Positions 33,686 to 47,383 of a stretch of DNA of 64,000 nt are shown in pieces. The position numbers were made by a program, and so were the translations under genes. Numbering within the stretch: position 1 is the first letter of the stretch; each line of letters begins with the position of its first letter. Below the pieces are notes generated by a model, which saw only the letters and a list, made by a program, of their open reading frames with translations, searched no databases and was not told where the DNA came from. The stretch is from a phage: the NCBI GenBank assembly GCA_033664045.1, contig GCA_033664045.1_3674.1. One strand, given 5' to 3'.

Positions 33686-33703
33686 TTTATTAACTGAATT
33701 ATC

Positions 33704-33730
33704 AAGGGGCTTAAGGCCCCTTTCTTTTTG
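33704..33730 (+). terminator. rho-independent terminator closing the plus-strand block
   Basis: aaggggcttaaggcccc + TTTCTTTTTG. Confidence 0.6.
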
Positions 33731-34179
33731 TTTGCTCTTTTCCTACCACAAACGGCCCAGCCTGGCAAGTGGAATAATTGACTAGCCATCAATCCCGCAC
33801 ACTGTACAAATATACATATAAAATAGATATTGCATAACCTTTCATTGTGTGGTAGCAGGGCCATTTTTACACGTTTTTCCTTCCAAAATTGCACGTAATG
33901 CAGCTATTGCACAAAATTTAACCTGATGCACATCTTCAGTATACTGTCAACAATTAAAAACCCTTATAAGTCATACACTTACACAAACCAAAAAGCGTGT
34001 CCTACGTGAAAAATCGGGTGTAACTATAGCCGACAGATCTCAGAATCCACGTACGATCACCATTCTATAGCCTGCAAAGTATTTATTCCAACCACAGAAT
34101 AACGGAATAGTCAATACCTGTATAAAATAATTATTCGTATAAACTGCATAACATAAACCCGCCCAGGTGTCAACATTTT

Positions 34180-35040
34180 TCGTAAACAGTCCGAAATTGT
34201 CACGGTGAGTTATCATAAATAGAGAAATATTTAGTCGTCTAATGTTTACTGTACATTACTATACTGACTGGAATCATTAGATGACTAAGAGAAAGATAAG
34301 AAATAATTAACAATGTAAGTATTTTACCTGCAACAATAAGGCAACTATGCAAACGAATGTCATGGCGCGACGGAGTCGCGACATAATATAAAAGCAGTAA
34401 CCATCACCCCCGTGATAGTTTGTCTGCAAACTATTAATCAGATCATAGTTGCCTTGTATTTAGTTAATCATGACATAACAAGCAAGGCAACTATAGATCT
34501 TCTAATAGTTGCCCTGCTTTTATATTATGTCATCTATTGTAAATCAGTTAATTGTTTTCATGCAAACGAATGTCATGGCTTATCATTTTTGAGTAAATAG
34601 TTTGTTTGTAAACAATCTATACGTAAACAGTTAACTATGTAAACTATTAGATATGTAAACTATTGGTTATGTAGACTATCAGGAATGTAAACAGTAAAGC
34701 GAGTGAATAGTGAGAGCGTAAACAGTCAGGCATGTCAATTATGTTTAATGTGCCCAGTATGTCACTATTGTGTCTAAAGTGTCATAGTATGTCACAGTAT
34801 GTCAGACAAGTTTTTCTCCTCTTTGTCAAGTGCTGCATGAAAAATTTACAAACTGGTATGGTAGCATTTTTGCGGCCCTGTTTACATTCAGTAATGTATG
34901 TATAATCCTTGTTGTGTGGGCGTTTGGACGTCTAGACGGTTGGAAGTCTGCAGGTCAATATCTAATCTATTGGCTGCTAACTATATCCCACACAAATAGT
35001 AAGAAATATGATTGTTATATGCGTAAACAGTAACTCATGT
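34180..35040. repeat. iteron-rich non-coding region
   Basis: at least 8 copies of GTAAAC(A/T)(G/A)T; 5 copies of (A)GTATGTCA at about 10-11 bp spacing (34757-34805); inverted ATAGTTGCC/GGCAACTAT pairs; palindrome cgcgacggagtcgcg. Confidence 0.55.
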
Positions 35041-36222
35041 TATCAATCCCTGTATGTATCGCCAGTGGTGCGCATAATGGGTATTATGTTAAATTGCCCG
35101 TAATGATAACTATTCTCACAATGATAGGTATTCTCATTCACCCCCACAAGATAGGTTGCAAATGTTGTGCCACTGTGTGAACGGCCTCACCTATTAATTT
35201 GCCTCACTGCCTCGATATTTGAGAATTGTTATAAGAATGAGAAGTATTCCCATTCCGTCCGCCTGGCAGCACTCCAGTCGCTACGGCTCATAACAGGGCA
35301 GAACTGGGTCCATTCAGATATTTCTGGCTGGCTCTTCAGGTCTGTGTGGGAAAAGCCAACCTCTCCTGCGGCGGGGAGGGGGTCAATTAAAAAATTTACG
35401 TGGTATATGTAGCGCTGTTCAGGTAAGGCATGTATTATGGGATGAAATCCTCTTCAGGCAATGATATTTGTGGGTGTGATATTTGCTGGAAAGCCAGATA
35501 TGACGGGACTCCCGGCGGGGCAGGGGTGGTACAGACAGGGAAAATATGGAGGATGTGGTTGGGTGAATTGATCAGACAGGTAGAGTATGGAATATGTTAC
35601 AAGTATGTTAAATATGAAGGGTGAATATCTGTAGGATTTGTGTGTAAAATCAAAGACTTAAGTAGTGTTGTGGTATTTTCTATAAATAATTCAAGTTTAA
35701 TAGGTAATATTTGTCTCTATCCACTTTGTGTGGTAAACAAATTCAGATGAGATTGGTTTACAAGTGTATACATAATATACAAATTAAAGATACAAGAAAC
35801 CCCCCTCCCCCTTCGGCTACCATTCACCTTTTCCTCTGACTGGTACTTAAACACTTATTCAGACTCTTCAGGTTATCACCCATATATCATATGGCAGTGA
35901 CTGGTGTCCTCCGGCCCCTCTTTCGTCACCCGTCCGCTTCGCCATGCTAATGCCATAGCCAAATGTTCGGTTGTTCACCCTGTTCACTCAGGTGTATCTC
36001 CATACCCCTTCAAACCGAAGAGAACAGAAAACCCGAATTACTCGGTAAAAGAAAAGAGAAGAACTTAATTTTATCAAGATAGGCAAGAATGTCAAGGCAT
36101 GACTGCTCACTAAACAAGCAAACAGTCATGTGCGGTAGGTAAGTGATTGTGGTTGTAGGAAATTTAATTGAAAGATGTGTTATAGGTGCTTCCAGCACTT
36201 TAGCCTGGCAGCTAATTGTGTG

Positions 36223-36438
36223 TCAGTCCAGCGGTTCATCCTCTACTTCACTGAAATCAATGTTCATGGTCTCTTCCCAACCATCGATCTCAGCACAAGA
36301 GTGGAGTTCTTTAGGGTTTACTCCCAAAGCCTCAGCAACAGAGTCTATATTTAACACCTCTGGCAGGTATGATTCATCGAATTCAAGGTAAATCAGGCCA
36401 CGAGTGTTGTCAGCTCCACCAAATATTTCTATCTTCAT
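36223..36438 (-). CDS. hypothetical small acidic protein
   Basis: last ORF of minus-strand block; MKIEIF N-terminus shared with family. Confidence 0.5.
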   Translation of the reverse strand: MKIEIFGGADNTRGLIYLEFDESYLPEVLNIDSVAEALGVNPKELHSCAEIDGWEETMNIDFSEVEDEPLD

Positions 36439-38915: not shown

Positions 38916-39203
38916 TCATAGTGCCTCTAAGATTTCATATCCTTCGGGTCGGAATACAAGCCACTCCGTGGCTCCGTTTGGTCGATACGCTTTATACAGA
39001 ACAACCTGATCTCGGCACATGCACATAGCTACATAGTTTTCATCCACACCTGCAGCCTGCATTGCAGCTTCTTCTCCGGCAACTGCTTTGCTTACAACCT
39101 CTTTGGTAGGCAGGTGTGCGATCAGCTCGTCACCATCATTAATTCCAAAATGGCTGAGTTCTCCATTGGTATCTTTAATCTTAATCTTAACCAGATCTTT
39201 CAT
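38916..39203 (-). CDS. hypothetical protein
   Basis: co-directional ORF. Confidence 0.5.
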   Translation of the reverse strand: MKDLVKIKIKDTNGELSHFGINDGDELIAHLPTKEVVSKAVAGEEAAMQAAGVDENYVAMCMCRDQVVLYKAYRPNGATEWLVFRPEGYEILEAL

Positions 39204-39532
39204 TAGTCTTCCTCCAGGTTCAAAGGTCCTAAGATTTCATATGCCAGATTAGAAGTTACCAGAGGATCTTCTGCATCTTTAGTATTATACCACCCGTGAA
39301 TAACCAGAGTCCCACTCTGTTTCATATCTAACTGGAACTGTTCTGCAGTTTCCTCATCCATCTCTAAGATCTCCATAAGGTATTTGATGTTAGGGAGGTA
39401 TGCAGCTGTTACAGTCCCCTCTACCAGACCTTCAGGCCAACCTACATCTGGATGACAAGTAGGAACCAGGTTGGTCAGCTTAATGGTGTACGCTTTTTCT
39501 GCACGAGCCTTCAGTAACGGGTCAATCTTCAT
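39203..39532 (-). CDS. hypothetical protein
   Basis: abutting start/stop with neighbours. Confidence 0.5.
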   Translation of the reverse strand: MKIDPLLKARAEKAYTIKLTNLVPTCHPDVGWPEGLVEGTVTAAYLPNIKYLMEILEMDEETAEQFQLDMKQSGTLVIHGWYNTKDAEDPLVTSNLAYEILGPLNLEED

Positions 39533-39882
39533 TATTCGTCCTCCTCTTCGGTGCCTGCTTCCAGTAATAAGTTAAGAATATCTTCTGCACAAGGCTCATA
39601 GAACTCTTGGCCTTCATTATCGATGATTTTGTAGTCATCTCCACGAATAATCAGTGGATCACTCTCAAAATTATCGAGACCTTTAACAACGACAACACGA
39701 TCGATTGCCATCATTGTAAGAACTTTATCGACATTTTCCTCTGCTACACCATACTGCAGCAGAATGTCTTTGGTAGGAGGAACAGCATCCACAACAACAC
39801 CGTTACCAAAACCTTCCGGAAGTTTAGCTAAAATATCTTCCGGAACCGCATTCACATCAAAACCGGTAATTTCTACTTTCAT
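39532..39882 (-). CDS. hypothetical small acidic protein (family C)
   Basis: MKVEITG N-terminus, acidic C-terminus EEEDE. Confidence 0.5.
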   Translation of the reverse strand: MKVEITGFDVNAVPEDILAKLPEGFGNGVVVDAVPPTKDILLQYGVAEENVDKVLTMMAIDRVVVVKGLDNFESDPLIIRGDDYKIIDNEGQEFYEPCAEDILNLLLEAGTEEEDE

Positions 39883-40143
39883 TTACAGCACCTCTTCGTC
39901 AACTACTTCATAAAAATGGCTTGGGATTGCAATAGCGTTCTCACCTTCACCTACAAACACAGTTCCGTCAAGAATCAACATCATAAGAATTTCTGGAATA
40001 TCCTCTTCCGGAACGTTGCCAAAACCTTTAATCAGCTTGTAGGTTGGAAGATTTACCTCTAAGATGTCACCATCTTTAGAGCGGAAATCAACACCATCCT
40101 GAATCTCTGCCATTTCAAGGTTTTTCAGTTTAATCTTCATCAA
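39883..40143 (-). CDS. hypothetical small acidic protein (family C)
   Basis: MKIKLK N-terminus; C-terminal FYEVVDEEVL. Confidence 0.5.
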   Translation of the reverse strand: MMKIKLKNLEMAEIQDGVDFRSKDGDILEVNLPTYKLIKGFGNVPEEDIPEILMMLILDGTVFVGEGENAIAIPSHFYEVVDEEVL

Positions 40144-40219
40144 TCAGTCTCCCGTCTTGTTAAGATGAAGGTATTATTTCACACAGGGTTGGCGTTGTCA
40201 ACACCTGTGTGCAAGAAAA

Positions 40220-40615
40220 TTACTGAAACAGTGCGGATAAATTACCTTCTGGTGGGAACTTATCTGCCAAAAACGGTGTTAGCACAGTAGCCTTCTGAAG
40301 ATCTGGGGTCCACTCGTTGTTCAGAACATCCCAGTAGTACGCAATGTTGCTGTGTGGGTGCCGCATTACGAACTTTTTCCCTTCGTAGTCATCTGAAACC
40401 TCTACAGAAGAAATAACAACAGAATCTTCAAGGGTTTCTTCATAGAAAGATCCACCTTCAAATTTCCAACGAGATGCAAGAGCCCCTGCCTTGAACGCTG
40501 CAGATAACGGACTGTCGGCAAGAACATACATTTCTTGCACTCTGTCGCTGCGATCTTTGCTTCTTACGTTGTATACAGTATCTGAGCTATACTCAACACG
40601 GTATAGGCTTACCAT
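40220..40615 (-). CDS. hypothetical protein (family B paralog)
   Basis: FVMRHPHSNIAYYWDVLNNEWTP matches 42425 ORF FVIVHPDSRVKHYWNARTKTWTP. Confidence 0.55.
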   Translation of the reverse strand: MVSLYRVEYSSDTVYNVRSKDRSDRVQEMYVLADSPLSAAFKAGALASRWKFEGGSFYEETLEDSVVISSVEVSDDYEGKKFVMRHPHSNIAYYWDVLNNEWTPDLQKATVLTPFLADKFPPEGNLSALFQ

Positions 40616-40974
40616 TACCGCACCTCCTCAATAACTTCCACATCTGAACCTACCACAAATGCAAAAGGACAGGTTTCATGAAAGATATCCGGATCGCCGC
40701 CAAGCTTGCTAACAATTTCTCCACCACTAATAAACACAAGCTCACCGATATTCATCAGATTGCTGAAATAGTACCCATAATGATTAAAGAATGCAGCAGG
40801 GTCAGGTAGACTAGTGGCCTCAAGCACTACATCGGTTGAGGTTACTTTCTTATCATAACCTCTCGCCTTTTGAGATGCAAGATCTGCAGAATCCTCAGGA
40901 GACCGGAGATGCACAGGAATTGTTTCACCAATAAAGCGTACTTTCATATTATCACCCAACAACCATAGCTTCAA
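40615..40974 (-). CDS. hypothetical small acidic protein (family C)
   Basis: C-terminal VEVIEEVR; internal MKVRFIG may be true start. Confidence 0.45.
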   Translation of the reverse strand: MKLWLLGDNMKVRFIGETIPVHLRSPEDSADLASQKARGYDKKVTSTDVVLEATSLPDPAAFFNHYGYYFSNLMNIGELVFISGGEIVSKLGGDPDIFHETCPFAFVVGSDVEVIEEVR

Positions 40975-41215
40975 AAGGAGTCATGAACGAATAAACGGCA
41001 TCATCATCTGCTTCAGGGAATGCTCCCAAAGACTTCATGTCTGAGCCCTTGACAAATACAAGGTTTTGATCAAAAGCTTCTTGGGGGTCAATCCGATACA
41101 TATTTCGTAGAATATCGCTTACCTCCTCATCAAGAGGTGAGTATGCTGTGCACGTTTTTCCGATCAAGCTTTGAGAATCAGGGTAGCCACCTGAAGTTTT
41201 AAAATAAACAATCAT
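40952..41215 (-). CDS. hypothetical protein
   Basis: co-directional ORF. Confidence 0.45.
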   Translation of the reverse strand: MIVYFKTSGGYPDSQSLIGKTCTAYSPLDEEVSDILRNMYRIDPQEAFDQNLVFVKGSDMKSLGAFPEADDDAVYSFMTPFEAMVVG

Positions 41216-41309
41216 ATAGTATCACCTCTGGTAAGAGATTGGGATTCCTTTCCCATAAATAATTACAAATCTTCCTTAGCGAGGAAGTAGTATGCTAATC
41301 CAAGCAGGA

Positions 41310-41579
41310 TTATTCCTCTACAATCTCATACACATCAGGAGTTACAATCAACTCTTCTCCGTTACCCGGTGCAACAAACACCACCATTCCTTCAGGTGTG
41401 TGCTTTTTAGCCATCTCGATAACATCTTCTCGCAGAGCTGGCTCCATCAGATCAAAACCTTCACCCAGGGCATCACGAACCACCTTCATATAGTCAACTG
41501 GTTGTGCTTCGACAATCATGCCTTCAACCAGTCCACAGTTTTTGTCTGCCAGCTCAGTTTTGAATAATTTAATTTTCAT
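41310..41579 (-). CDS. hypothetical small acidic protein (family C)
   Basis: MKIKLFK N-terminus; C-terminal VYEIVEE. Confidence 0.5.
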   Translation of the reverse strand: MKIKLFKTELADKNCGLVEGMIVEAQPVDYMKVVRDALGEGFDLMEPALREDVIEMAKKHTPEGMVVFVAPGNGEELIVTPDVYEIVEE

Positions 41580-41716
41580 TTAGAGGTCTCCTCAATTATT
41601 TGATATTAATAGCCGTAACCTAACACATTAACTACAACTGCGATTGCAAACATAATTTCAAAGCATGCAATCTCTACATTTGGGACTAATTTCTTAATCA
41701 CGCCCATTGTAGCACC

Positions 41717-42034
41717 TCATTCTCCAAAGTCAATCTTTACTTTGCCTTTCCTCTTACCTTTCTTTCCACCACATTTAGCCAGCTGACGTGCTGCAACATC
41801 TACCATACGGTCAGTTGCCTCGTAAGCATCACCTCCTTTAGCCTTGGCAATAACTTCTTTTCCAGAATTGTCAAAAATGAACGCCATAACTTCCTGGCGA
41901 TCATTTTCAACTTTTACACTCACACGTGCATGATTTACAGAAGGATGTAGACGCTCCAGTTTTGACATTTTTTGGGAAATGAAAGACACCATGCCTTCGG
42001 TGATTTCTACGTTGCCAGTGATCTCAATTTGCAT
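41717..42034 (-). CDS. hpf: ribosome hibernation promoting factor (HPF/RaiA family)
   Basis: collinear with E. coli HPF: MQIEITGNVEIT...KLERL...VSVKVE...GKEVIAKAKGGDAYEATDRMVDVAARQLAK vs MQLNITGNNVEIT...KLEQY...VVLKVE...GGEIHASAEGQDMYAAIDGLIDKLARQLTK. Confidence 0.8.
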   Translation of the reverse strand: MQIEITGNVEITEGMVSFISQKMSKLERLHPSVNHARVSVKVENDRQEVMAFIFDNSGKEVIAKAKGGDAYEATDRMVDVAARQLAKCGGKKGKRKGKVKIDFGE

Positions 42035-42116
42035 AACGTGTTCCTTTTAAAGAAGAGGGAACCAAACCCTCTTTGAAAACAATGATACTAAATCTGAAGC
42101 GTTGTGTCAACAGTTT

Positions 42117-42407
42117 TTACAGCTTGTTGTCGATAGTATCCAAAATATCTACAGCAAGATCTGCCATTTTTCGAACATACTCTGCAAACTCAACAGGGTC
42201 CTTGATTAAAGAATTCACAGGGTCGTACCCTAGAGCGTTCAAAATGGCTGCAGCATCTACAACCTTCTCATCATTTGCAAAGATCTCTCCGTCAAACTTA
42301 TAGGTCCCTTTTGAGTCAATCTTGGCAGGGCATGGTTGGTCCATGCTTATTACACCATCTTTTTTAAACGATTCGGTGTTATCAGTATCCAAAACTAAAT
42401 CCATCAT
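42117..42407 (-). CDS. hypothetical protein
   Basis: co-directional ORF; minus-strand terminator hairpin near 42043-42065 downstream. Confidence 0.5.
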   Translation of the reverse strand: MMDLVLDTDNTESFKKDGVISMDQPCPAKIDSKGTYKFDGEIFANDEKVVDAAAILNALGYDPVNSLIKDPVEFAEYVRKMADLAVDILDTIDNKL

Positions 42408-42424
42408 GTAAGTACCCCACTGTT

Positions 42425-42823
42425 TCAGCTTATTTTTTCTTCAACAACCCCGTAGCTCGGGGCAGAGTCAAGAGCTTTCTGGTTTAAAAGTGGTGTAGCA
42501 GAATCTGCAAACGGTGTCCAGGTTTTTGTTCTGGCATTCCAGTAATGCTTCACTCTGGAATCAGGATGCACTATAACAAAAACTTTTTCACTTGTCAACA
42601 CATTAATTTCTTCCACACCCCTGCTGATAATTTCTCCGTCATATCCCCCGGTCTGGTATCCTTCGTACCAGGTTCTTGCATAGGCATAGCCAGCCTGCCA
42701 GCATGCAGCCTCCTCCGAGGTGGAGACTACGTAGAAGTCTTTCTCAAATTCTGGGATACGCCCTTGCTTTACGCTCCAAGCTCCGCGAATTTTCATTGTA
42801 ACTTTGAACAGTTTATTTTTCAC
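42425..42823 (-). CDS. hypothetical protein (family B paralog)
   Basis: paralog of 40220 ORF. Confidence 0.55.
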   Translation of the reverse strand: MKNKLFKVTMKIRGAWSVKQGRIPEFEKDFYVVSTSEEAACWQAGYAYARTWYEGYQTGGYDGEIISRGVEEINVLTSEKVFVIVHPDSRVKHYWNARTKTWTPFADSATPLLNQKALDSAPSYGVVEEKIS

Positions 42824-42835
42824 AACGGTTACCCA

Positions 42836-43090
42836 TCACAGCTCTACAATATCTGCATCTGACCCTGCCCCAAAGGCATAATATGACTCTTCCCCGAAAT
42901 AATATTCCGGTGCACCAGCCGCGATCAGGTCTGATCCCAAGATGAACACCACATTGTGGCCTACATAGCTGTGATTTTGCCGCACAGGATCATCCCACGG
43001 CAACCCTTCGAAGTATACAGCAGGTACGATCTTTCCCTTCAGGAATGATTGCCCCAAGTAGACGTTAGAGTCAAGAATTTTAACCTTCAT
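42836..43090 (-). CDS. hypothetical small protein (family A paralog)
   Basis: MKVKILDSNVYLGQ...GSDLIAAGA shared with 43080 and 46712. Confidence 0.55.
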   Translation of the reverse strand: MKVKILDSNVYLGQSFLKGKIVPAVYFEGLPWDDPVRQNHSYVGHNVVFILGSDLIAAGAPEYYFGEESYYAFGAGSDADIVEL

Positions 43091-43304
43091 GATCGTCCTC
43101 CACTACCTCTACATCCTCGCCTAGGGCAAAGTTGTAATTCCACTGACTGTCAAAGCATTCCTGAGATGCGCCAGCGGCAATAAGATCTGACCCTTTTATT
43201 TTTAAAAGGTCAGGGTAATCTTCATTAGGAACAGCGGTAAACACTTTTCCAACCAAAGGCTCTTGACCAATATAGAAGTTTGAATCTAAAACTTTAACTT
43301 TCAT
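43080..43304 (-). CDS. hypothetical small protein (family A paralog)
   Basis: MKVKVLDSNFYIGQ...GSDLIAAGA...VEVVEDD. Confidence 0.55.
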   Translation of the reverse strand: MKVKVLDSNFYIGQEPLVGKVFTAVPNEDYPDLLKIKGSDLIAAGASQECFDSQWNYNFALGEDVEVVEDDHEG

Positions 43305-43588
43305 CAGCGGTCTCCATCGGGCGGCTGTGGAACGTAAACACTGTTACGAATCTCGTCAGCAGTGTAGTAACAAGTTTTCCCCTCTCTGTCTCTGGCAGCA
43401 ATGTATTCAGCTATACCAATAAGTGCCATAGACTTGGTGGCGTATCTTTTAAGCTCGTTAGCTCCCCAGCAAAATCTCTGCCAAAACGGTATGAAACCGA
43501 ATAGGTACACCTTCTGTTTCACTATCCAATAAGTTCCTTTACAGATCACTTTAAACTCTGCAGCACTGTTACTGACACCATTGCTCAT
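43304..43588 (-). CDS. hypothetical protein
   Basis: co-directional ORF. Confidence 0.5.
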   Translation of the reverse strand: MSNGVSNSAAEFKVICKGTYWIVKQKVYLFGFIPFWQRFCWGANELKRYATKSMALIGIAEYIAARDREGKTCYYTADEIRNSVYVPQPPDGDR

Positions 43589-43600
43589 TATCTTCTCCTT

Positions 43601-43885
43601 TTATTTTTCTAGGTTTGGCAGATATTGCACATTGGCAGGAGGAACACCGGATAGCTCCCAAACAACCATAGTGCTATACCCTGGCACACTTCTAACATTT
43701 AAAAGAGTAGGAGCACCAACACATTTAAACTTCCTTTTCCCAAATCCGTTCTCCATCATAACCCAGTATCCGGTATCCTGATCACCTGGAATTTGTGTTC
43801 CATCATCGTCCACCCAGCGGACGGTCCATTTCGATACAGCAACTGATCGGTATTTAAACTTTTTAAACCACTCAAACAGTTTCAT
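43601..43885 (-). CDS. hypothetical protein
   Basis: co-directional ORF. Confidence 0.5.
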   Translation of the reverse strand: MKLFEWFKKFKYRSVAVSKWTVRWVDDDGTQIPGDQDTGYWVMMENGFGKRKFKCVGAPTLLNVRSVPGYSTMVVWELSGVPPANVQYLPNLEK

Positions 43886-43980
43886 AATTCAGCCTCGCAT
43901 AGCCATAATAACTATAAACAGACAAATAATGAATCCGAATGCCACGCCACCCATAAACGTTAATATTGATGCGACCATAA

Positions 43981-44166
43981 TCAATCATCCTCGTTTGGCA
44001 GCTCTTCCATTTTGACATACCGAAAAGTGTTGCCGTAATAGTTGATCCATGACATCAGCTCGCTTTCTTGCTCTTCCTCTGGAATTGACTCTCGGATACT
44101 GACAAGTTTTAAGAAAATCCAATCACAATCCACACCCATCCTACCAGACAGGCAATAGTGCTTCAT
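43981..44166 (-). CDS. hypothetical protein
   Basis: small ORF. Confidence 0.4.
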   Translation of the reverse strand: MKHYCLSGRMGVDCDWIFLKLVSIRESIPEEEQESELMSWINYYGNTFRYVKMEELPNEDD

Positions 44167-44184
44167 AGAACCCTCCCGCCTGGT

Positions 44185-44379
44185 TTAGAATATTGCTTCT
44201 TCCATTACGCCTGAGAGCAATAAAGAGGTAATATGACTAACATTCATCTCAGACTCTACTTCCTCTCCTTTGAAAGGTTCGCGGCAGAATAGGACTGTTT
44301 CAGGACTTTTACTTCGAACAATATAATACAAATCATTCAAAGTGTTGTAGTAATAAGTGTTAAAACGTAAGTTTTTCAT
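44185..44379 (-). CDS. hypothetical protein
   Basis: small ORF; stop overlaps upstream gene. Confidence 0.4.
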   Translation of the reverse strand: MKNLRFNTYYYNTLNDLYYIVRSKSPETVLFCREPFKGEEVESEMNVSHITSLLLSGVMEEAIF

Positions 44380-44663
44380 TTTCTAGTCCCCTTCTTAGAT
44401 TTTTGTGCAGAAACGCTTTCTGCAATACGAGACAGGCGTTCTTCTGAAGCTTTACCTACCCCAGGTTTCTTGAGCGGGTTATCTTTATGACCGCAATCCA
44501 ATTGGATGCTAGATACCTCCCCAACCTTGTAAGTCAATTCTAACAAAAGGTTGTCGTCCTTGTCAAATGTTTTTACGATAAATTTTTTATCGTCCTCCTG
44601 AACTTCGTACCTAGTACCTGCAGTATACAGCATGGTGCCATCAGCATAGGATATCCAGATCAT
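44376..44663 (-). CDS. hypothetical protein
   Basis: overlapping junctions both sides. Confidence 0.5.
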   Translation of the reverse strand: MIWISYADGTMLYTAGTRYEVQEDDKKFIVKTFDKDDNLLLELTYKVGEVSSIQLDCGHKDNPLKKPGVGKASEERLSRIAESVSAQKSKKGTRK

Positions 44664-45025
44664 TGAGCCTCCTTCTGCTGCAACAGCATTAACTCTTTGT
44701 TAGAGATCTTTACTGCTGTTTTTATTGTTCCATCTTTGCGGAACCACGACCAGAACTCTACAGTGTCCCCATTATCAAGCAAAGCATACCCGTGGTAGAA
44801 GTCTTTGTCCTTAGACAGTTTCTCATCTATGTCTGCATCGACACATTCGTGATCCATAGCATTTTGCCTGAATGCATCGGTTATGCCAATGCACGCCTTG
44901 CTCTCAAGACTGGTATATCCAGTATCTTTTAATTCGGTTTCCCAAACCCAGTATCCTACAAAAGCTACGACGGTTACCAGCCCCATAGCAGCTACCCACA
45001 TTAATATCGACTTAATATTTGGCAT
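44660..45025 (-). CDS. hypothetical membrane-anchored protein
   Basis: N-terminal TM helix ILMWVAAMGLVTVVAFVGYWVW. Confidence 0.5.
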   Translation of the reverse strand: MPNIKSILMWVAAMGLVTVVAFVGYWVWETELKDTGYTSLESKACIGITDAFRQNAMDHECVDADIDEKLSKDKDFYHGYALLDNGDTVEFWSWFRKDGTIKTAVKISNKELMLLQQKEAQ

Positions 45026-45085
45026 TCTCTCTACCTCTTTCTTAGTTTAATTAATCATGGCACATCCTTTGTGCCTTGTTGTACA

Positions 45086-45547
45086 CTACTTAAACAACAG
45101 TTCAAGATAGTGCAAAATTAACAGAAGTTGAATTACGCCTAGCACAACGGCGAGTATGTTAATCTTAGAATCAAAAAACTTCTTAACTTTTACCCTAAAA
45201 GGCTCTTTAATGTCCTTTACGATCCTATTTATAGATGATTTCATATCCCTGATTACCATCCTAAACATTAGAGACGGATCCTCCTTCTCTGTAACAGAAT
45301 CGAAAACATACTCTCTTCGGTCATAAGGCCCTCCAGATCTGCGTATTAACCTCTCCACAGAGACCTCGTACGACACACCTGTAACGTAATCATCTATGAC
45401 AAGTAGTGACGGGTCTTTATCATCCAAGGGTATTAAAGTTATCTTTCCAGATTTTGTTAAAATTTCTCCTTTTTCAAGCAAGGTGTACCAATGCTCTCTA
45501 CCAAGATTGTTGAGGCACGTTTTTACATATTTAACAAACATCGTCAC
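45086..45547 (-). CDS. hypothetical protein
   Basis: C-terminal hydrophobic helix. Confidence 0.5.
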   Translation of the reverse strand: MTMFVKYVKTCLNNLGREHWYTLLEKGEILTKSGKITLIPLDDKDPSLLVIDDYVTGVSYEVSVERLIRRSGGPYDRREYVFDSVTEKEDPSLMFRMVIRDMKSSINRIVKDIKEPFRVKVKKFFDSKINILAVVLGVIQLLLILHYLELLFK

Positions 45548-45747
45548 CCCTCATCGCACGTCTGATATAACCATTCTATGAAATCTTGATACCACTCTCC
45601 CTCTGAGCGCTCCGTAGGCCAATAATCTTCCCCCTCTCTTGCATTAAAATCTGAGTATTCAACTTTCCACTCCTTTACCAGCTCGTGGAGAAGGTTTTCG
45701 GCCTGTTCTAAGGATTTATTTTTTGTCATTACTGTCCCCTTTTTCAA
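45544..45747 (-). CDS. hypothetical protein
   Basis: ATGA-type overlap. Confidence 0.45.
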   Translation of the reverse strand: MKKGTVMTKNKSLEQAENLLHELVKEWKVEYSDFNAREGEDYWPTERSEGEWYQDFIEWLYQTCDEG

Positions 45748-45949
45748 GATAATTATACATCAGTGCCGCGCCACCCAAAATGGCTACTAGCAGTAATACT
45801 CCAGAGAGCATTTCAATAAACATGGCTTGAAACATTAGAAGGCCCCCTCTAATTTTACGCACCATTTTAAATACACACTCTTTTCCCATGAAGATGCTGA
45901 ACTAAGGTCTGTATGGAATGCAATCTCCCTAAGAATAGTGTAAACAGTT

Positions 45950-46186
45950 TCAGGCACTGTTACCATCCTTATCTGCCTCCTTCATTTTCCTGACGGTTTT
46001 ACAGTGATCTACCAAGCACATAACAACAATGAAGAGAACGACAGGCCAAAAAGGTGCGGCAGTGATTATAGTTATAAAGTCGTCAAACTTAATTTTTCTA
46101 CAAGATATGATGCAAAGAGTTGCTAAAACAACCATTGTCAGAAAGGTCAATGCGCAATACCAAACCAACACAGTATCTATGGCCAT
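45950..46186 (-). CDS. hypothetical membrane protein
   Basis: two hydrophobic helices. Confidence 0.45.
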   Translation of the reverse strand: MAIDTVLVWYCALTFLTMVVLATLCIISCRKIKFDDFITIITAAPFWPVVLFIVVMCLVDHCKTVRKMKEADKDGNSA

Positions 46187-46187
46187 A

Positions 46188-46715
46188 TCACATCTCCTGG
46201 TTCAAACTGTTAAGAAAGGATACTCTGTCTTCGCTATTTTTCTCTGTGATATACCCTCCAAACATGGAAAGAATCACATGCTTCAAGTAATCTTTTTCTG
46301 GGTCGCTTAGATGATTGCGTGGCTTTATTTCCACATCATGGTAGTCATACAATCCACAATCATGATACCCCCAGTATCGACACACCTCAATACTGATCGG
46401 GAGTTTTTTGTCACACGAAACTTTCCAACGGGTTACGTTGTTACCAGGGGATAAATCCTCGCCCACCTTCACGAATGACAAATCGTAATTCATAAACTTT
46501 TCGTACAGTTTAAGTACAAAACCCTCGACCTGTGGAGAAACACCAGCCACTAGCTGGGCGTATCTATATTTACTTTCAATAATTTTTCGGCGCTTTGCTG
46601 TAAGGTTTATTGCAGCAATTTGACTCTCTGAGTATCTCCAAGGCTTGTATATAAATGCTTTCGGGTCTTTATCGCCATAAAAATCTTTCCAATCAACTAG
46701 CAGCATACCTGTCAC
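46188..46715 (-). CDS. hypothetical protein
   Basis: co-directional ORF. Confidence 0.5.
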   Translation of the reverse strand: MTGMLLVDWKDFYGDKDPKAFIYKPWRYSESQIAAINLTAKRRKIIESKYRYAQLVAGVSPQVEGFVLKLYEKFMNYDLSFVKVGEDLSPGNNVTRWKVSCDKKLPISIEVCRYWGYHDCGLYDYHDVEIKPRNHLSDPEKDYLKHVILSMFGGYITEKNSEDRVSFLNSLNQEM

Positions 46716-46945
46716 TCCTCCACAACTTCAAGGCCTTTTCCGCCTCGTTCTGGTAGATTACTTAAAGACAGGTAATACGTATAGTCAGGAGAGATCCTGC
46801 CAGACTCTGCACCTGCAGATAGTAAATCTTTTCCCTTAACCATGACAACATTATCGTTTGCAGATAGTCGTTTTGCTTCCACAATTTTACCAACGCAGTC
46901 AACCAAGGAAGGGTACCCTAAATCTGTAAGAAATTTAACTTTCAT
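46712..46945 (-). CDS. hypothetical small protein (family A paralog)
   Basis: MKVKFLTDLGY...GKDLLSAGA...LEVVEE. Confidence 0.55.
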   Translation of the reverse strand: MKVKFLTDLGYPSLVDCVGKIVEAKRLSANDNVVMVKGKDLLSAGAESGRISPDYTYYLSLSNLPERGGKGLEVVEE

Positions 46946-46984: not shown

Positions 46985-47383
46985 TTACTGAACAGAGCGC
47001 GGAGCTGGGAAGGATAACTCTTCTAAAGAGAAGATTTCATTCCCCACAATCCATGTTGCAGGATCATCTGGGTTTACTGGATAGATAATCATCACCTCGT
47101 CAGTGTTACATACCCGCTTTTTACCTGTGGAGTCATCAGCAACCAGCATGCGCGGTTCTTCAGAAATGCACAGGTAGCCTCCTCGGCCCACTGTTCCTTC
47201 CACAGGATCTTGTCCTTTGATCACGATGATTATCTTCTCTCCTGAGGCGATATTACCTTGCACACTCACCGTTTGACCAACCTTGGATGTGCCAATCTTA
47301 GTGACTTCGAACATTACATCCCGAATTACTGTTGCATAATCGCCAGACACTTTCTTACCTTCTTTAGTGATCTCAATCTTCAT
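46985..47383 (-). CDS. hypothetical protein
   Basis: MKIEITK N-terminus. Confidence 0.5.
   Translation of the reverse strand: MKIEITKEGKKVSGDYATVIRDVMFEVTKIGTSKVGQTVSVQGNIASGEKIIIVIKGQDPVEGTVGRGGYLCISEEPRMLVADDSTGKKRVCNTDEVMIIYPVNPDDPATWIVGNEIFSLEELSFPAPRSVQ

What the first reader, a model, noticed from the sequence alone, without database searches (positions are those of the whole stretch)
39532..46945. Expanded families of small acidic paralogs on the minus strand
At least three families are visible. Family A (42836, 43080, 46712) shares MKVK(I/V/F)L...GQ...GK...GSDL(I/L)AAGA and an acidic C-terminus. Family B (40220, 42425) shares FV(M/I)(R/V)HP(H/D)S...(Y/H)YW...WTP...AT.L. Family C (39532, 39883, 40615, 41310, plus 36223 and 46985 by N-terminus) starts MK(I/V)(K/E)(I/L) and ends (V/I)(Y/E)(E/V)(I/V)(V/E)EE. 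Paralog expansion of small acidic proteins in an early region is typical of diversifying host-interaction or anti-defence genes.
Basis: seen in the sequence. Interest (0 to 1): 0.6.

Follow-up and report, generated by a model that had tools for sequence, protein, structure and literature searches.

The report
Three paralog families of phage ORFans
A block of small genes in an rV5-like E. coli phage holds three real families of old duplicated genes (5, 2 and 5 copies) of unknown function that are conserved rather than fast-diversifying, which is a tidy but fairly ordinary feature of large lytic phages.

Summary
The window is a Vequintavirus (rV5/FV3-like E. coli myophage). The paralogy is real, but the membership needs correcting.

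- **Family A:** five genes (46712, 43080, 42836, plus 40952 and the C-terminal half of 40615). AlphaFold predicts an SH3-like small beta-barrel (pLDDT 91).
- **Family B:** two genes (40220, 42425).
- **Family C:** five genes (41310, 39883, 39532, plus the missed 39203 and 38916).
- **Rejected:** 40615 does not belong to C. 36223 and 46985 share only about 7 N-terminal residues.

So 12 of about 32 genes between 38.9 and 46.9 kb belong to three families. Reversed-sequence controls never exceeded 22% HHalign probability; family links score 80-99%, except 39883/41310 pairwise (55%).

The anti-defence reading is not supported:
- dN/dS is 0.05-0.18 for all members.
- Gene content and order are conserved across about 120 genomes and in a lineage only 29-74% identical.
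- Published data show these phages are unusually restriction-sensitive.
- The block is no more acidic than other small genes in the window.

No function is known. B and C are genus-restricted. A also occurs in temperate mEp021-like coliphages between Q and the lysis genes, and one natural chimera shows A genes recombining between temperate and virulent phages. My best guess is that these are stable, non-enzymatic protein-binding modules expressed from host-type promoters. Interest is modest.

The parts
46712..46945 (-). Family A member (77 aa). This is the type that has relatives in temperate mEp021-like phages and E. coli prophages.
   Evidence: phrog_5009 E=8.5e-36. HHalign 97.3% to 43080. 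42-49% identical to mEp010/mEp013/mEp021 genes.
43080..43304 (-). Family A member (74 aa). It is the first gene of a tandem pair and overlaps the next gene by 11 nt.
42836..43090 (-). Family A member (84 aa), second gene of the tandem pair. It has a 14-residue insert between strands 2 and 3.
   Evidence: blastp E=9e-16 and HHalign 99.3% to 43080. phrog_5009 E=5.8e-32.
40952..41215 (-). Divergent Family A member (87 aa) with an acidic helical insert.
   Evidence: HHalign 96.6%, E=6e-10, full length, against the merged A profile, with control at 1.4% or less. Weak phrog_5009 hit at 1.2e-4. An 87-aa Shigella phage CM1 protein (identity to 40952 not checked) matches the A model at TM 0.81.
40615..40947 (-). 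110-aa protein whose C-terminal half (residues 70-108) is a Family A core. The N-terminus reads MKVRF.
   Evidence: HHalign 94.4-95.5%, E=9e-8 to 1e-8, against merged A profiles. hmmsearch E=3e-5. No link to Family C.
42425..42823 (-). Family B member (132 aa, pI 7.8).
   Evidence: phrog_7379 E=3e-73. HHalign 97.3% to 40220 over 121 columns.
40220..40615 (-). Family B member (131 aa). This is the only B type present in the divergent lineage.
   Evidence: phrog_7379 E=2e-66. blastp E=1e-9 to 42425. 40% identical to the ortholog in L013/L015.
41310..41579 (-). Family C member (89 aa).
   Evidence: HHalign 54.8% to 39883 over 77 columns and 60.3% to the merged 39532+39883 profile. Adding it to the profile recruits 38916 at 90.9%.
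39883..40140 (-). Family C member (85 aa). It is the first gene of a four-gene tandem run, directly downstream of a promoter.
   Evidence: HHalign 89.8%, E=1.8e-6, 84 columns, to 39532.
39532..39882 (-). Family C member (116 aa) with an extra acidic C-terminal tail. It abuts the previous gene.
   Evidence: HHalign 89.8% to 39883 and 85.3% to 39203. It is the fastest-evolving member, at 29% identity to its ortholog in the divergent lineage.
39203..39532 (-). Its start overlaps the upstream stop codon (ATGA).
   Evidence: HHalign 91.4%, E=9e-7, to the merged C profile, with control at 1% or less.
38916..39203 (-). Its start overlaps the upstream stop codon (ATGA).
   Evidence: HHalign 90.9-91.8%, E about 1e-6, 79-80 columns, to merged C profiles.
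40173..40201 (-). Near-consensus sigma-70 promoter (TTGACA-17-AATAAT with an extended -10 TG) in the gap upstream of the four-gene Family C run.
   Evidence: 11 of 12 matches. The equivalent site is annotated as promoter P150 in rV5.
42082..42110 (-). Near-consensus sigma-70 promoter (TTGACA-17-TATCAT) upstream of the HPF/RaiA homolog and the genes after it (41310, 40952, 40615, 40220).
   Evidence: 11 of 12 matches. The equivalent site is annotated as promoter P144 in rV5.
36223..36438 (-). NOT a family member. It shares only the MKIEI start.
   Evidence: HHalign aligns 7 columns only, at 2-10% probability. It has its own PHROG, phrog_12108.
46985..47383 (-). NOT a family member. It shares only the MKIEI start.
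   Evidence: HHalign aligns 5-7 columns only, at 2-4% probability. It belongs to phrog_5748.

Best explanation
Shown: the block carries three old paralogous families of small cytoplasmic proteins. Family A has 5 genes, Family B has 2, and Family C has 5. They arose by tandem duplication before the known Vequintavirus lineages split. Each copy has since been kept under purifying selection. The genes are packed back to back, often with overlapping stop and start codons, behind host-type sigma-70 promoters.

Also shown: Family A is predicted to be a single SH3-like small beta-barrel. It has a conserved Y11, G19-K20, G38-x-D40-L41...G45-A46 and Y57 patch, and it tolerates large inserts between strands 2 and 3.

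Inferred: these are non-enzymatic binding modules. Each paralog has specialised on a different partner, either a host protein or a phage protein. They are made together, early or in the middle of infection, to remodel host physiology. They are not arms-race effectors that turn over quickly. Family A is also a mobile cassette, because related copies sit in the late-operon accessory slot of temperate coliphages and recombine with the virulent-phage copies.
For: Homology:
- blastp, PHROG and HHalign results with reversed-sequence controls support all three families.

Age and conservation:
- All A and C members and one B member are present in the same order in lineage L013-L015, at 29-74% identity.
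- The full set is present in at least 111 of 130 matching phage records.
- dN/dS is 0.05-0.18.

Expression signals:
- 11-of-12 sigma-70 matches sit in the two intergenic gaps, the same sites annotated in rV5.
- Stop and start codons overlap or abut for 43080/42836, 39883/39532/39203/38916 and 40615/40220 (coordinates).

Fold:
- The Family A model has pLDDT 91 and pTM 0.79.
- Many uncharacterised small proteins of enterobacterial phages share the fold at TM 0.6-0.85.
- There are no enzyme signatures and no Pfam or PDB sequence hits.

Mobility:
- Homologs lie between the Q antiterminator and the holin in mEp021 and in E. coli prophages, and in an SU10-like contig.
- In the natural chimera in L017/L018, the first 135 nt are 92% identical to the temperate-phage gene and the last 90 nt are 96% identical to 43080. 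The crossover lies in the DLIAAGA-coding core.
- Unequal crossover has collapsed the 43080/42836 pair into one hybrid gene in L019/L020.
Against: - No experiment or known homolog gives a function, so the binding-module idea rests on fold class, size and the absence of catalytic motifs.
- Timing of expression has not been measured.
- The Family B model is poor (pLDDT 61).
- Pairwise gene-wide dN/dS cannot exclude positive selection at a few sites.
Confidence: 0.5

Rival explanations
1. One reading: these are diversifying anti-defence or counter-immunity proteins, for example DNA mimics or inhibitors of defence sensors. On this view the paralogs exist to cover variants of host immune systems.
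For: - The proteins are small and mostly acidic, with no known function, and sit behind host-type promoters.
- Family A homologs occupy the accessory-gene slot between Q and the lysis genes of temperate phages.
- Family A genes are exchanged between phage types.
- Many anti-defence proteins are similar small ORFans (my own background knowledge).
Against: - dN/dS is 0.05-0.18, no higher than the neighbours.
- Gene content and order are fixed across the genus and, apart from the second B copy, in a lineage with 29-74% identity. Anti-defence islands usually vary in content.
- Vequintavirinae are reported as exceptionally RM-sensitive (PMC8594841).
- The predicted Family A fold is a beta-barrel, not an elongated helical DNA mimic.
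- Acidity is not exceptional for this genome.
Confidence: 0.2
2. These are phage-internal accessory factors. They could be small subunits, chaperones or regulators acting on the phage's own replication, transcription, translation-control or assembly machinery, rather than on host targets.
For: - Conservation is strict, core-like and under purifying selection.
- They share a transcription unit with the nucleotide-metabolism genes (PMC3606486).
- They are interleaved with a phage HPF/RaiA homolog, a putative transcriptional regulator (phrog_639) and a virion protein.
- Translational coupling suggests fixed stoichiometry.
Against: - Families B and C are absent outside the genus, even though related subfamily members share the core machinery.
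- Family A also works in unrelated temperate and SU10-like phages with different machinery.
- The only block protein named among the predominant virion proteins in the rV5 paper's main text is gp133, the 45086 homolog. The supplementary mass-spectrometry table was not examined.
Confidence: 0.2
3. Families A and C, and the MKIEI-start genes 36223 and 46985, are one deep superfamily. The separate 'families' would then be subclusters of a single, larger expansion.
For: - They share an N-terminal MK(I/V)K(I/L) strand, a G-x-(I/V)-x-A second strand and a (Y/V)E(I/V)VE(E) C-terminal strand.
- The A-versus-C profile alignment covers the first 28-52 columns at E=0.003, against 0.3-0.5 for the reversed control.
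- 40952 has an acidic helical insert at the same position as the Family C insert.
Against: - HHalign probability is only 2-10%.
- 36223 and 46985 match over 5-7 residues only.
- An A/T-rich 'ATG AAA RTT AAA' start may simply reflect selection for efficient translation initiation (my inference).
- Without the family genes, the motif is not enriched (p=0.10).
Confidence: 0.2

Closest known systems
PHROG families phrog_5009 (A) and phrog_7379 (B); for C, the five separate families phrog_11868, 12359, 12155, 12457 and 12794
   Same: 46712, 43080 and 42836 match phrog_5009 end to end. 40220 and 42425 match phrog_7379 end to end. All of these PHROGs are annotated 'unknown function'.
   Different: - PHROGs does not unite 40952 (phrog_13920) or 40615 (phrog_13661) with Family A.
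- It splits Family C into five families.
- The C grouping and the enlarged A grouping are therefore new here.
SH3-like small beta-barrel domains (PsaE, Spt5/NusG KOW, eukaryotic SH3, retroviral integrase C-terminal domain)
   Different: - Sequence identity is 5-20%.
- There are no Pfam hits, and no significant PDB sequence hit (best E=0.046).
Host-takeover or 'hyperplastic' blocks of small early genes in large lytic phages (the Bacillus phage SPO1 host-takeover module, phage T4 early small-gene regions, phage T5 pre-early genes)
   Same: All are dense arrays of small, often acidic ORFans with host-type promoters, genus-restricted and mostly of unknown function (comparison from my own background knowledge).
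   Different: - Early expression is not demonstrated here.
- Gene content here is unusually stable.
- 12 of about 32 genes fall into just three paralog families.
Accessory genes between Q and the lysis cassette of lambdoid and mEp021-like temperate coliphages (mEp021_40)
   Same: mEp021_40 and the prophage proteins P0031/P0032 are true Family A homologs, 42-49% identical to 46712, and share the GxDLIAAGA core.
   Different: - They are single-copy and sit in a late-operon context in temperate phages.
- They are rare, found in 13 of 5426 complete E. coli genomes.
- Their function is also unknown.

Membership tests
phrog_5009 (Family A) | Significant full-length match to the family HMM | tested here: met
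   46712, 43080 and 42836 match at E=8.5e-36, 2.7e-38 and 5.8e-32 over the whole profile. 40952 matches only at 1.2e-4. 40615 gives no hit at 0.01. The last two are joined to A only by HHalign at 94-97%.
phrog_7379 (Family B) | Significant full-length match to the family HMM | tested here: met
   40220 matches at E=2.1e-66 and 42425 at E=3.3e-73, both end to end.
Family C as one homologous family (defined here) | Profile-profile similarity above matched reversed-sequence controls over most of the length | tested here: met
   38916, 39203, 39532, 39883 and 41310 link at 55-92% probability over 66-84 columns. Controls are at most 22% pairwise and at most 1% for merged profiles. 40615, 36223 and 46985 fail this test.
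SH3-like small beta-barrel fold | Five-stranded small barrel topology with structural similarity to known SH3, KOW or PsaE domains | tested here: met
Ocr/ArdA-type DNA-mimic anti-restriction proteins | Elongated, mainly helical, highly acidic DNA-mimicking fold | tested here: not met
   Family A is predicted to be a compact beta-barrel. There are no Pfam hits. 46712 and 42425 are not acidic.
Ocr/ArdA-type DNA-mimic anti-restriction proteins | The phage is protected from type I restriction-modification | not testable with these tools
   The literature says the opposite for this phage group: Vequintavirinae are 'exceptionally susceptible' to RM systems (PMC8594841).
Diversifying (arms-race) effector genes | Elevated dN/dS, or variable presence among close relatives | tested here: not met
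   Pooled pairwise dN/dS is 0.05-0.18. The full set is present in at least 111 of 130 matching records, and all but the second B copy are present in the divergent lineage. Site-specific selection was not tested.
Known anti-defence protein families (Acr, anti-CBASS, anti-Thoeris and others) | Match to a curated anti-defence profile | not testable with these tools
   No anti-defence HMM library was available. Pfam gave nothing, and PDB sequence searches gave nothing significant (best E=0.046).
Early host-takeover gene block | Transcription early in infection by unmodified host RNA polymerase | tested here: inconclusive
   Two 11-of-12 sigma-70 consensus sites lie in intergenic gaps (annotated in rV5). 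However, the total count of promoter-like sites (32) is not above the shuffled expectation (28.2), and I found no transcriptome.

The most novel reading that the evidence does not exclude
Families A and C are one ancient superfamily of SH3-like 'adaptor or decoy' barrels. The ten translationally coupled paralogs would each bind a different host factor, or assemble into hetero-oligomers. The Family A core would be a mobile cassette traded between virulent and temperate coliphages by recombination at the conserved DLIAAGA-coding stretch. That would make it a previously unrecognised, widespread class of small phage effector, with fold relatives in T4-like and T1-like phages.
Probability: 0.12. 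Interest if true: 0.6.

Novelty: new member of a known kind. Interest (0 to 1): 0.33.

Why it matters
**Annotation.** About 37% of the genes in a 'hypothetical protein' desert, found in a phage genus widely used for E. coli O157 biocontrol and present in the BASEL collection, reduce to three families. That cuts the number of independent unknowns to test. It also gives a confident fold for one family.

**Biology.** The pattern is old duplications, strict conservation and low dN/dS. It is a counter-example to the reflex that small acidic paralogs in an early region must be arms-race anti-defence genes.

**Gene flow.** The Family A chimera is a clean, nucleotide-level example of gene exchange between a temperate and a virulent coliphage.

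None of this reveals a new mechanism yet.

Tried and rejected
- **Pfam scan of ten members:** no hits.
- **IMG/VR scans with the A and B alignments:** only near-identical Vequintavirus contigs.
- **tblastn of a concatenated 15-protein query against 50,697 phage records:** nothing outside the genus except Family A in mEp010/013/021.
- **First HHalign all-versus-all:** it timed out. With shallow profiles of 85-100% orthologs it left Family C at noise level. This was resolved only after I fetched the divergent lineage L013-L015.
- **Family B:**
  - The 5.8-billion-protein search returned only the two paralog types, truncated or fused variants of them, and one partial unrelated 87-aa protein.
  - The exhaustive 1.84-billion-representative HMMER search added two divergent B forms (P0048, P0049); its weak long-protein hits look spurious (P0054, the only one inspected, is repetitive junk).
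  - The AlphaFold model was poor (pLDDT 61).
- **PDB sequence searches with the A and C profiles:** nothing meaningful.
- **A-C superfamily link:** 2-10% probability, so unproven.
- **Membership claims I rejected:** 40615 as a Family C member, and 36223 and 46985 as members of any family.
- **Exceptional acidity of the block:** rejected.
- **tRNA and Rfam scans of the region:** nothing.
- **Literature:** the rV5 genome paper, the BASEL paper, the mEp021 paper and toxic-protein screens give no functional data and do not mention these paralogs.

Full report
**Identity of the window.** The 8.5 kb around the finding is 91-95% identical to about 120 Vequintavirus genomes (rV5, FV3 and others). The best match is FV3 at 94.6%. 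In FV3 and rV5 the whole stretch is annotated as 'hypothetical protein', with four exceptions: a ribosome hibernation factor (HPF/RaiA) homolog, a 'transcriptional regulator', a 'virion structural protein' and a DNA methyltransferase. The minus strand from about 36.2 to 48.5 kb carries about 36 tightly packed small ORFs. GC skew flips at about 36 kb, where transcription converges.

**Checking the observation: Families A and B.**
- An all-versus-all blastp of the 36 ORFs gave 42836/43080 E=9e-16, 43080/46712 E=1e-6 and 40220/42425 E=1e-9.
- PHROGs places 46712, 43080 and 42836 in phrog_5009, and 40220 and 42425 in phrog_7379, all with end-to-end matches.
- Both families are real.

**Checking the observation: Family C.**
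- Pairwise blastp among the proposed members is not significant (E 0.03-0.5), and each member sits in its own PHROG.
- With shallow profiles made of 85-100% identical orthologs, HHalign left these pairs at the level of a forward-versus-reversed control.
- I then found a more divergent Vequintavirus-like lineage through distant Family A hits (L013-L015). Its orthologs of the block's genes are 28-87% identical to the window's.
- With these added, 39532/39883 reached 89.8% (E=1.8e-6, 84 columns), 39203/39532 reached 85.3% and 39883/41310 reached 54.8%. The control maximum over 630 pairs was 22%.
- A merged 39883+39532+41310 profile recruited 39203 at 91.4% and 38916 at 90.9% over 79 columns. Controls were at most 1%.
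- The alignment shows a coherent common layout: an MKIKL strand, G..(E/D)G.(I/V)..A, an acidic helical insert, G.VV(F/V), L(I/V)(I/V), and Y(E)I(V/L)(E/D).
- Family C is therefore real, but with a different membership: 38916, 39203, 39532 and 39883 (a four-gene tandem run) plus 41310.

**Corrections to membership.**
- 40615 does not link to C. Its residues 70-108 match the Family A core at 94-95% (E about 1e-8).
- 40952 is a full-length divergent Family A member at 96.6% (E=6e-10). Controls were at most 1.4%.
- 36223 and 46985 align to A or C only over their first 5-7 residues, at 2-10%.
- The start motif MK[IV][KER][ILVF] is enriched in the block (9/36 against 1/96 elsewhere, p=3e-5). Family members account for this. 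Without them the count is 2/24 (p=0.10).
- HMMs of the three families find no other member among all 1148 stop-to-stop ORFs of the window.
- A and C are not demonstrably related to each other (2-10%).

**Structure.**
- The Family A model (43080 with a 32-sequence alignment) is confident: pLDDT 91.0 and pTM 0.79. It has five strands plus a short helix after strand 3.
- Foldseek against predicted viral structures finds many uncharacterised small proteins of enterobacterial phages with the same fold at TM 0.6-0.85. These include RB49, Merlin, CS01, ZCKP1, Sf20 and pSf-1.

**Distribution.**
- Families B and C are confined to Vequintavirus-sized contigs, even in the 5.8-billion-protein search. The same holds for B in an exhaustive HMMER scan of 1.84 billion representatives.
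- Family A is broader. Its 46712-type has 42-49% identical homologs in the temperate phages mEp010, mEp013 and mEp021.
- In mEp021 the homolog is gene 40, among small hypothetical genes between the Q late regulator (gene 37) and the holin (gene 46).
- The same arrangement is seen in E. coli prophages (L006-L008). It is rare, present in 13 of 5426 complete genomes.
- A 107-aa form sits next to an HTH gene in an SU10-like contig.

**Dynamics of the paralogs.**
- In two independent assemblies (L019, L020) the 43080/42836 tandem pair has collapsed into a single 70-aa hybrid gene.
- In two others (L017, L018) the 43080 slot holds a chimera. Its first 135 nt are 92% identical to the temperate-phage gene and its last 90 nt are 96% identical to 43080.
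- The crossover lies in the stretch encoding the conserved DLIAAGA motif.
- This is direct evidence of recombination between temperate and virulent phage copies.

**Selection and conservation.**
- Nei-Gojobori dN/dS against five orthologous genomes is 0.02-0.21 for every gene in the block. The values are 0.06-0.14 for A, 0.05-0.07 for B and 0.05-0.18 for C.
- These are real coding genes under purifying selection, with no gene-wide diversifying signal.
- The full set is present in the same order in at least 111 of 130 matching phage records.
- The divergent lineage also keeps the set, apart from the second B copy.
- The duplications therefore predate the split of these lineages.

**Regulation and context.**
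- Two 11-of-12 sigma-70 sites lie in the only sizeable intergenic gaps. One is at 42110-42082, upstream of the HPF gene. The other is at 40201-40173, upstream of the four-gene C run. They coincide with promoters P144 and P150 annotated in rV5.
- The overall number of promoter-like sites is not above chance (32 against 28.2 expected).
- Several family genes overlap or abut their neighbours' stop and start codons. I infer from this that they are co-translated.
- The rV5 paper assigns the block to a long unit (genes 82-163) together with the DNA-metabolism genes. It reports no paralogs. The only block protein it names among the predominant virion proteins is gp133, the 45086 homolog (PMC3606486).
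- The BASEL paper reports that Vequintavirinae are exceptionally RM-sensitive (PMC8594841).
- The block is not more acidic than other small genes of the window (p=0.52).

**Interpretation.** The arms-race and anti-defence reading is not supported by the tests available. The best-supported picture is of three old, stably maintained families of small non-enzymatic proteins. At least one family is an SH3-like barrel. They are co-expressed from host-type promoters and most likely act by binding distinct partners.

What those partners are remains unknown. An anti-defence role and a phage-internal accessory role each keep about 0.2 probability. As a phenomenon, paralogous ORFans in the non-structural arm of a large lytic phage, this is a known kind. 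The specific contributions here are:
- the definition of Family C;
- the enlargement of Family A;
- the confident fold for Family A;
- the link to temperate phages and the chimera.

Noticed in passing
window 41717-42034 (-): A phage-encoded ribosome hibernation factor (HPF/RaiA, PF02482) homolog sits in the middle of the paralog block, with its own near-consensus sigma-70 promoter at 42110-42082. It is conserved in the divergent lineage at 63% identity.
   Followed up: partly
window about 33700-36200: This is a roughly 2.5 kb ORF-poor, lower-GC (0.39) stretch where the two transcription directions converge and GC skew flips. It has no tRNA and no Rfam match. The rV5 paper labels it 'non-coding', and its function is unknown.
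   Followed up: partly
L019 4001-4213, L020 4001-4213; L017 210-428, L018 210-428: These are natural recombinants of Family A genes. One is a 43080/42836 tandem pair collapsed into a single hybrid gene. The other is a chimera whose 5' part comes from a temperate-phage homolog and whose 3' part comes from 43080, with the crossover in the DLIAAGA-coding core.
   Followed up: yes
P0040, P0046: Database proteins fuse the N-terminus of 42836 (P0040), or most of 42425 (P0046), to the C-terminus of the 42117 protein. Some genomes therefore seem to carry deletions that remove or truncate the Family B gene 42425.
   Followed up: no
L013 11092-11388; L014/L015 12881-13177: The divergent Vequintavirus-like lineage has an extra 98-aa gene (PF27050, Phage_P22_Y8K6) inserted between the Family B gene and the Family C run. 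It also lacks the 42425-type B copy.
   Followed up: partly
phage records MG0656xx: Eighteen records named 'Campylobacter phage' with host C. jejuni match this E. coli Vequintavirus block at the same ~85-96% protein identity as the E. coli phage records. The host attribution looks doubtful, and could reflect contamination or mislabelling.
   Followed up: no
window 41310-41579 (-); L010 7509-7778: The Family C gene 41310 is annotated as 'sigma 54 modulation factor' in several GenBank records (for example ime_76). HHalign shows no similarity to the true HPF gene 41717, so this is probably propagated mis-annotation.
   Followed up: partly
window 43601-43885, 45950-46186, 46188-46715 (-): These non-family genes occur in two sharply different allelic forms among otherwise similar genomes. 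For example, 46188 is 96% identical in FV3 but only 50% in rV5, ime and Aya. 43601 is 96% against 64%. This indicates mosaic replacement of segments of the block.
   Followed up: no
BFVD hits: Several structural matches to the Family A model carry neighbouring UniProt accessions (A0A514CYE9/CYF5/CYG1; A0A6G5Y8X7/YAU3/YI21; A0A7U0G9C3/GA42). This hints that other phages also carry multiple paralogs of this fold. The organisms could not be resolved.
   Followed up: no
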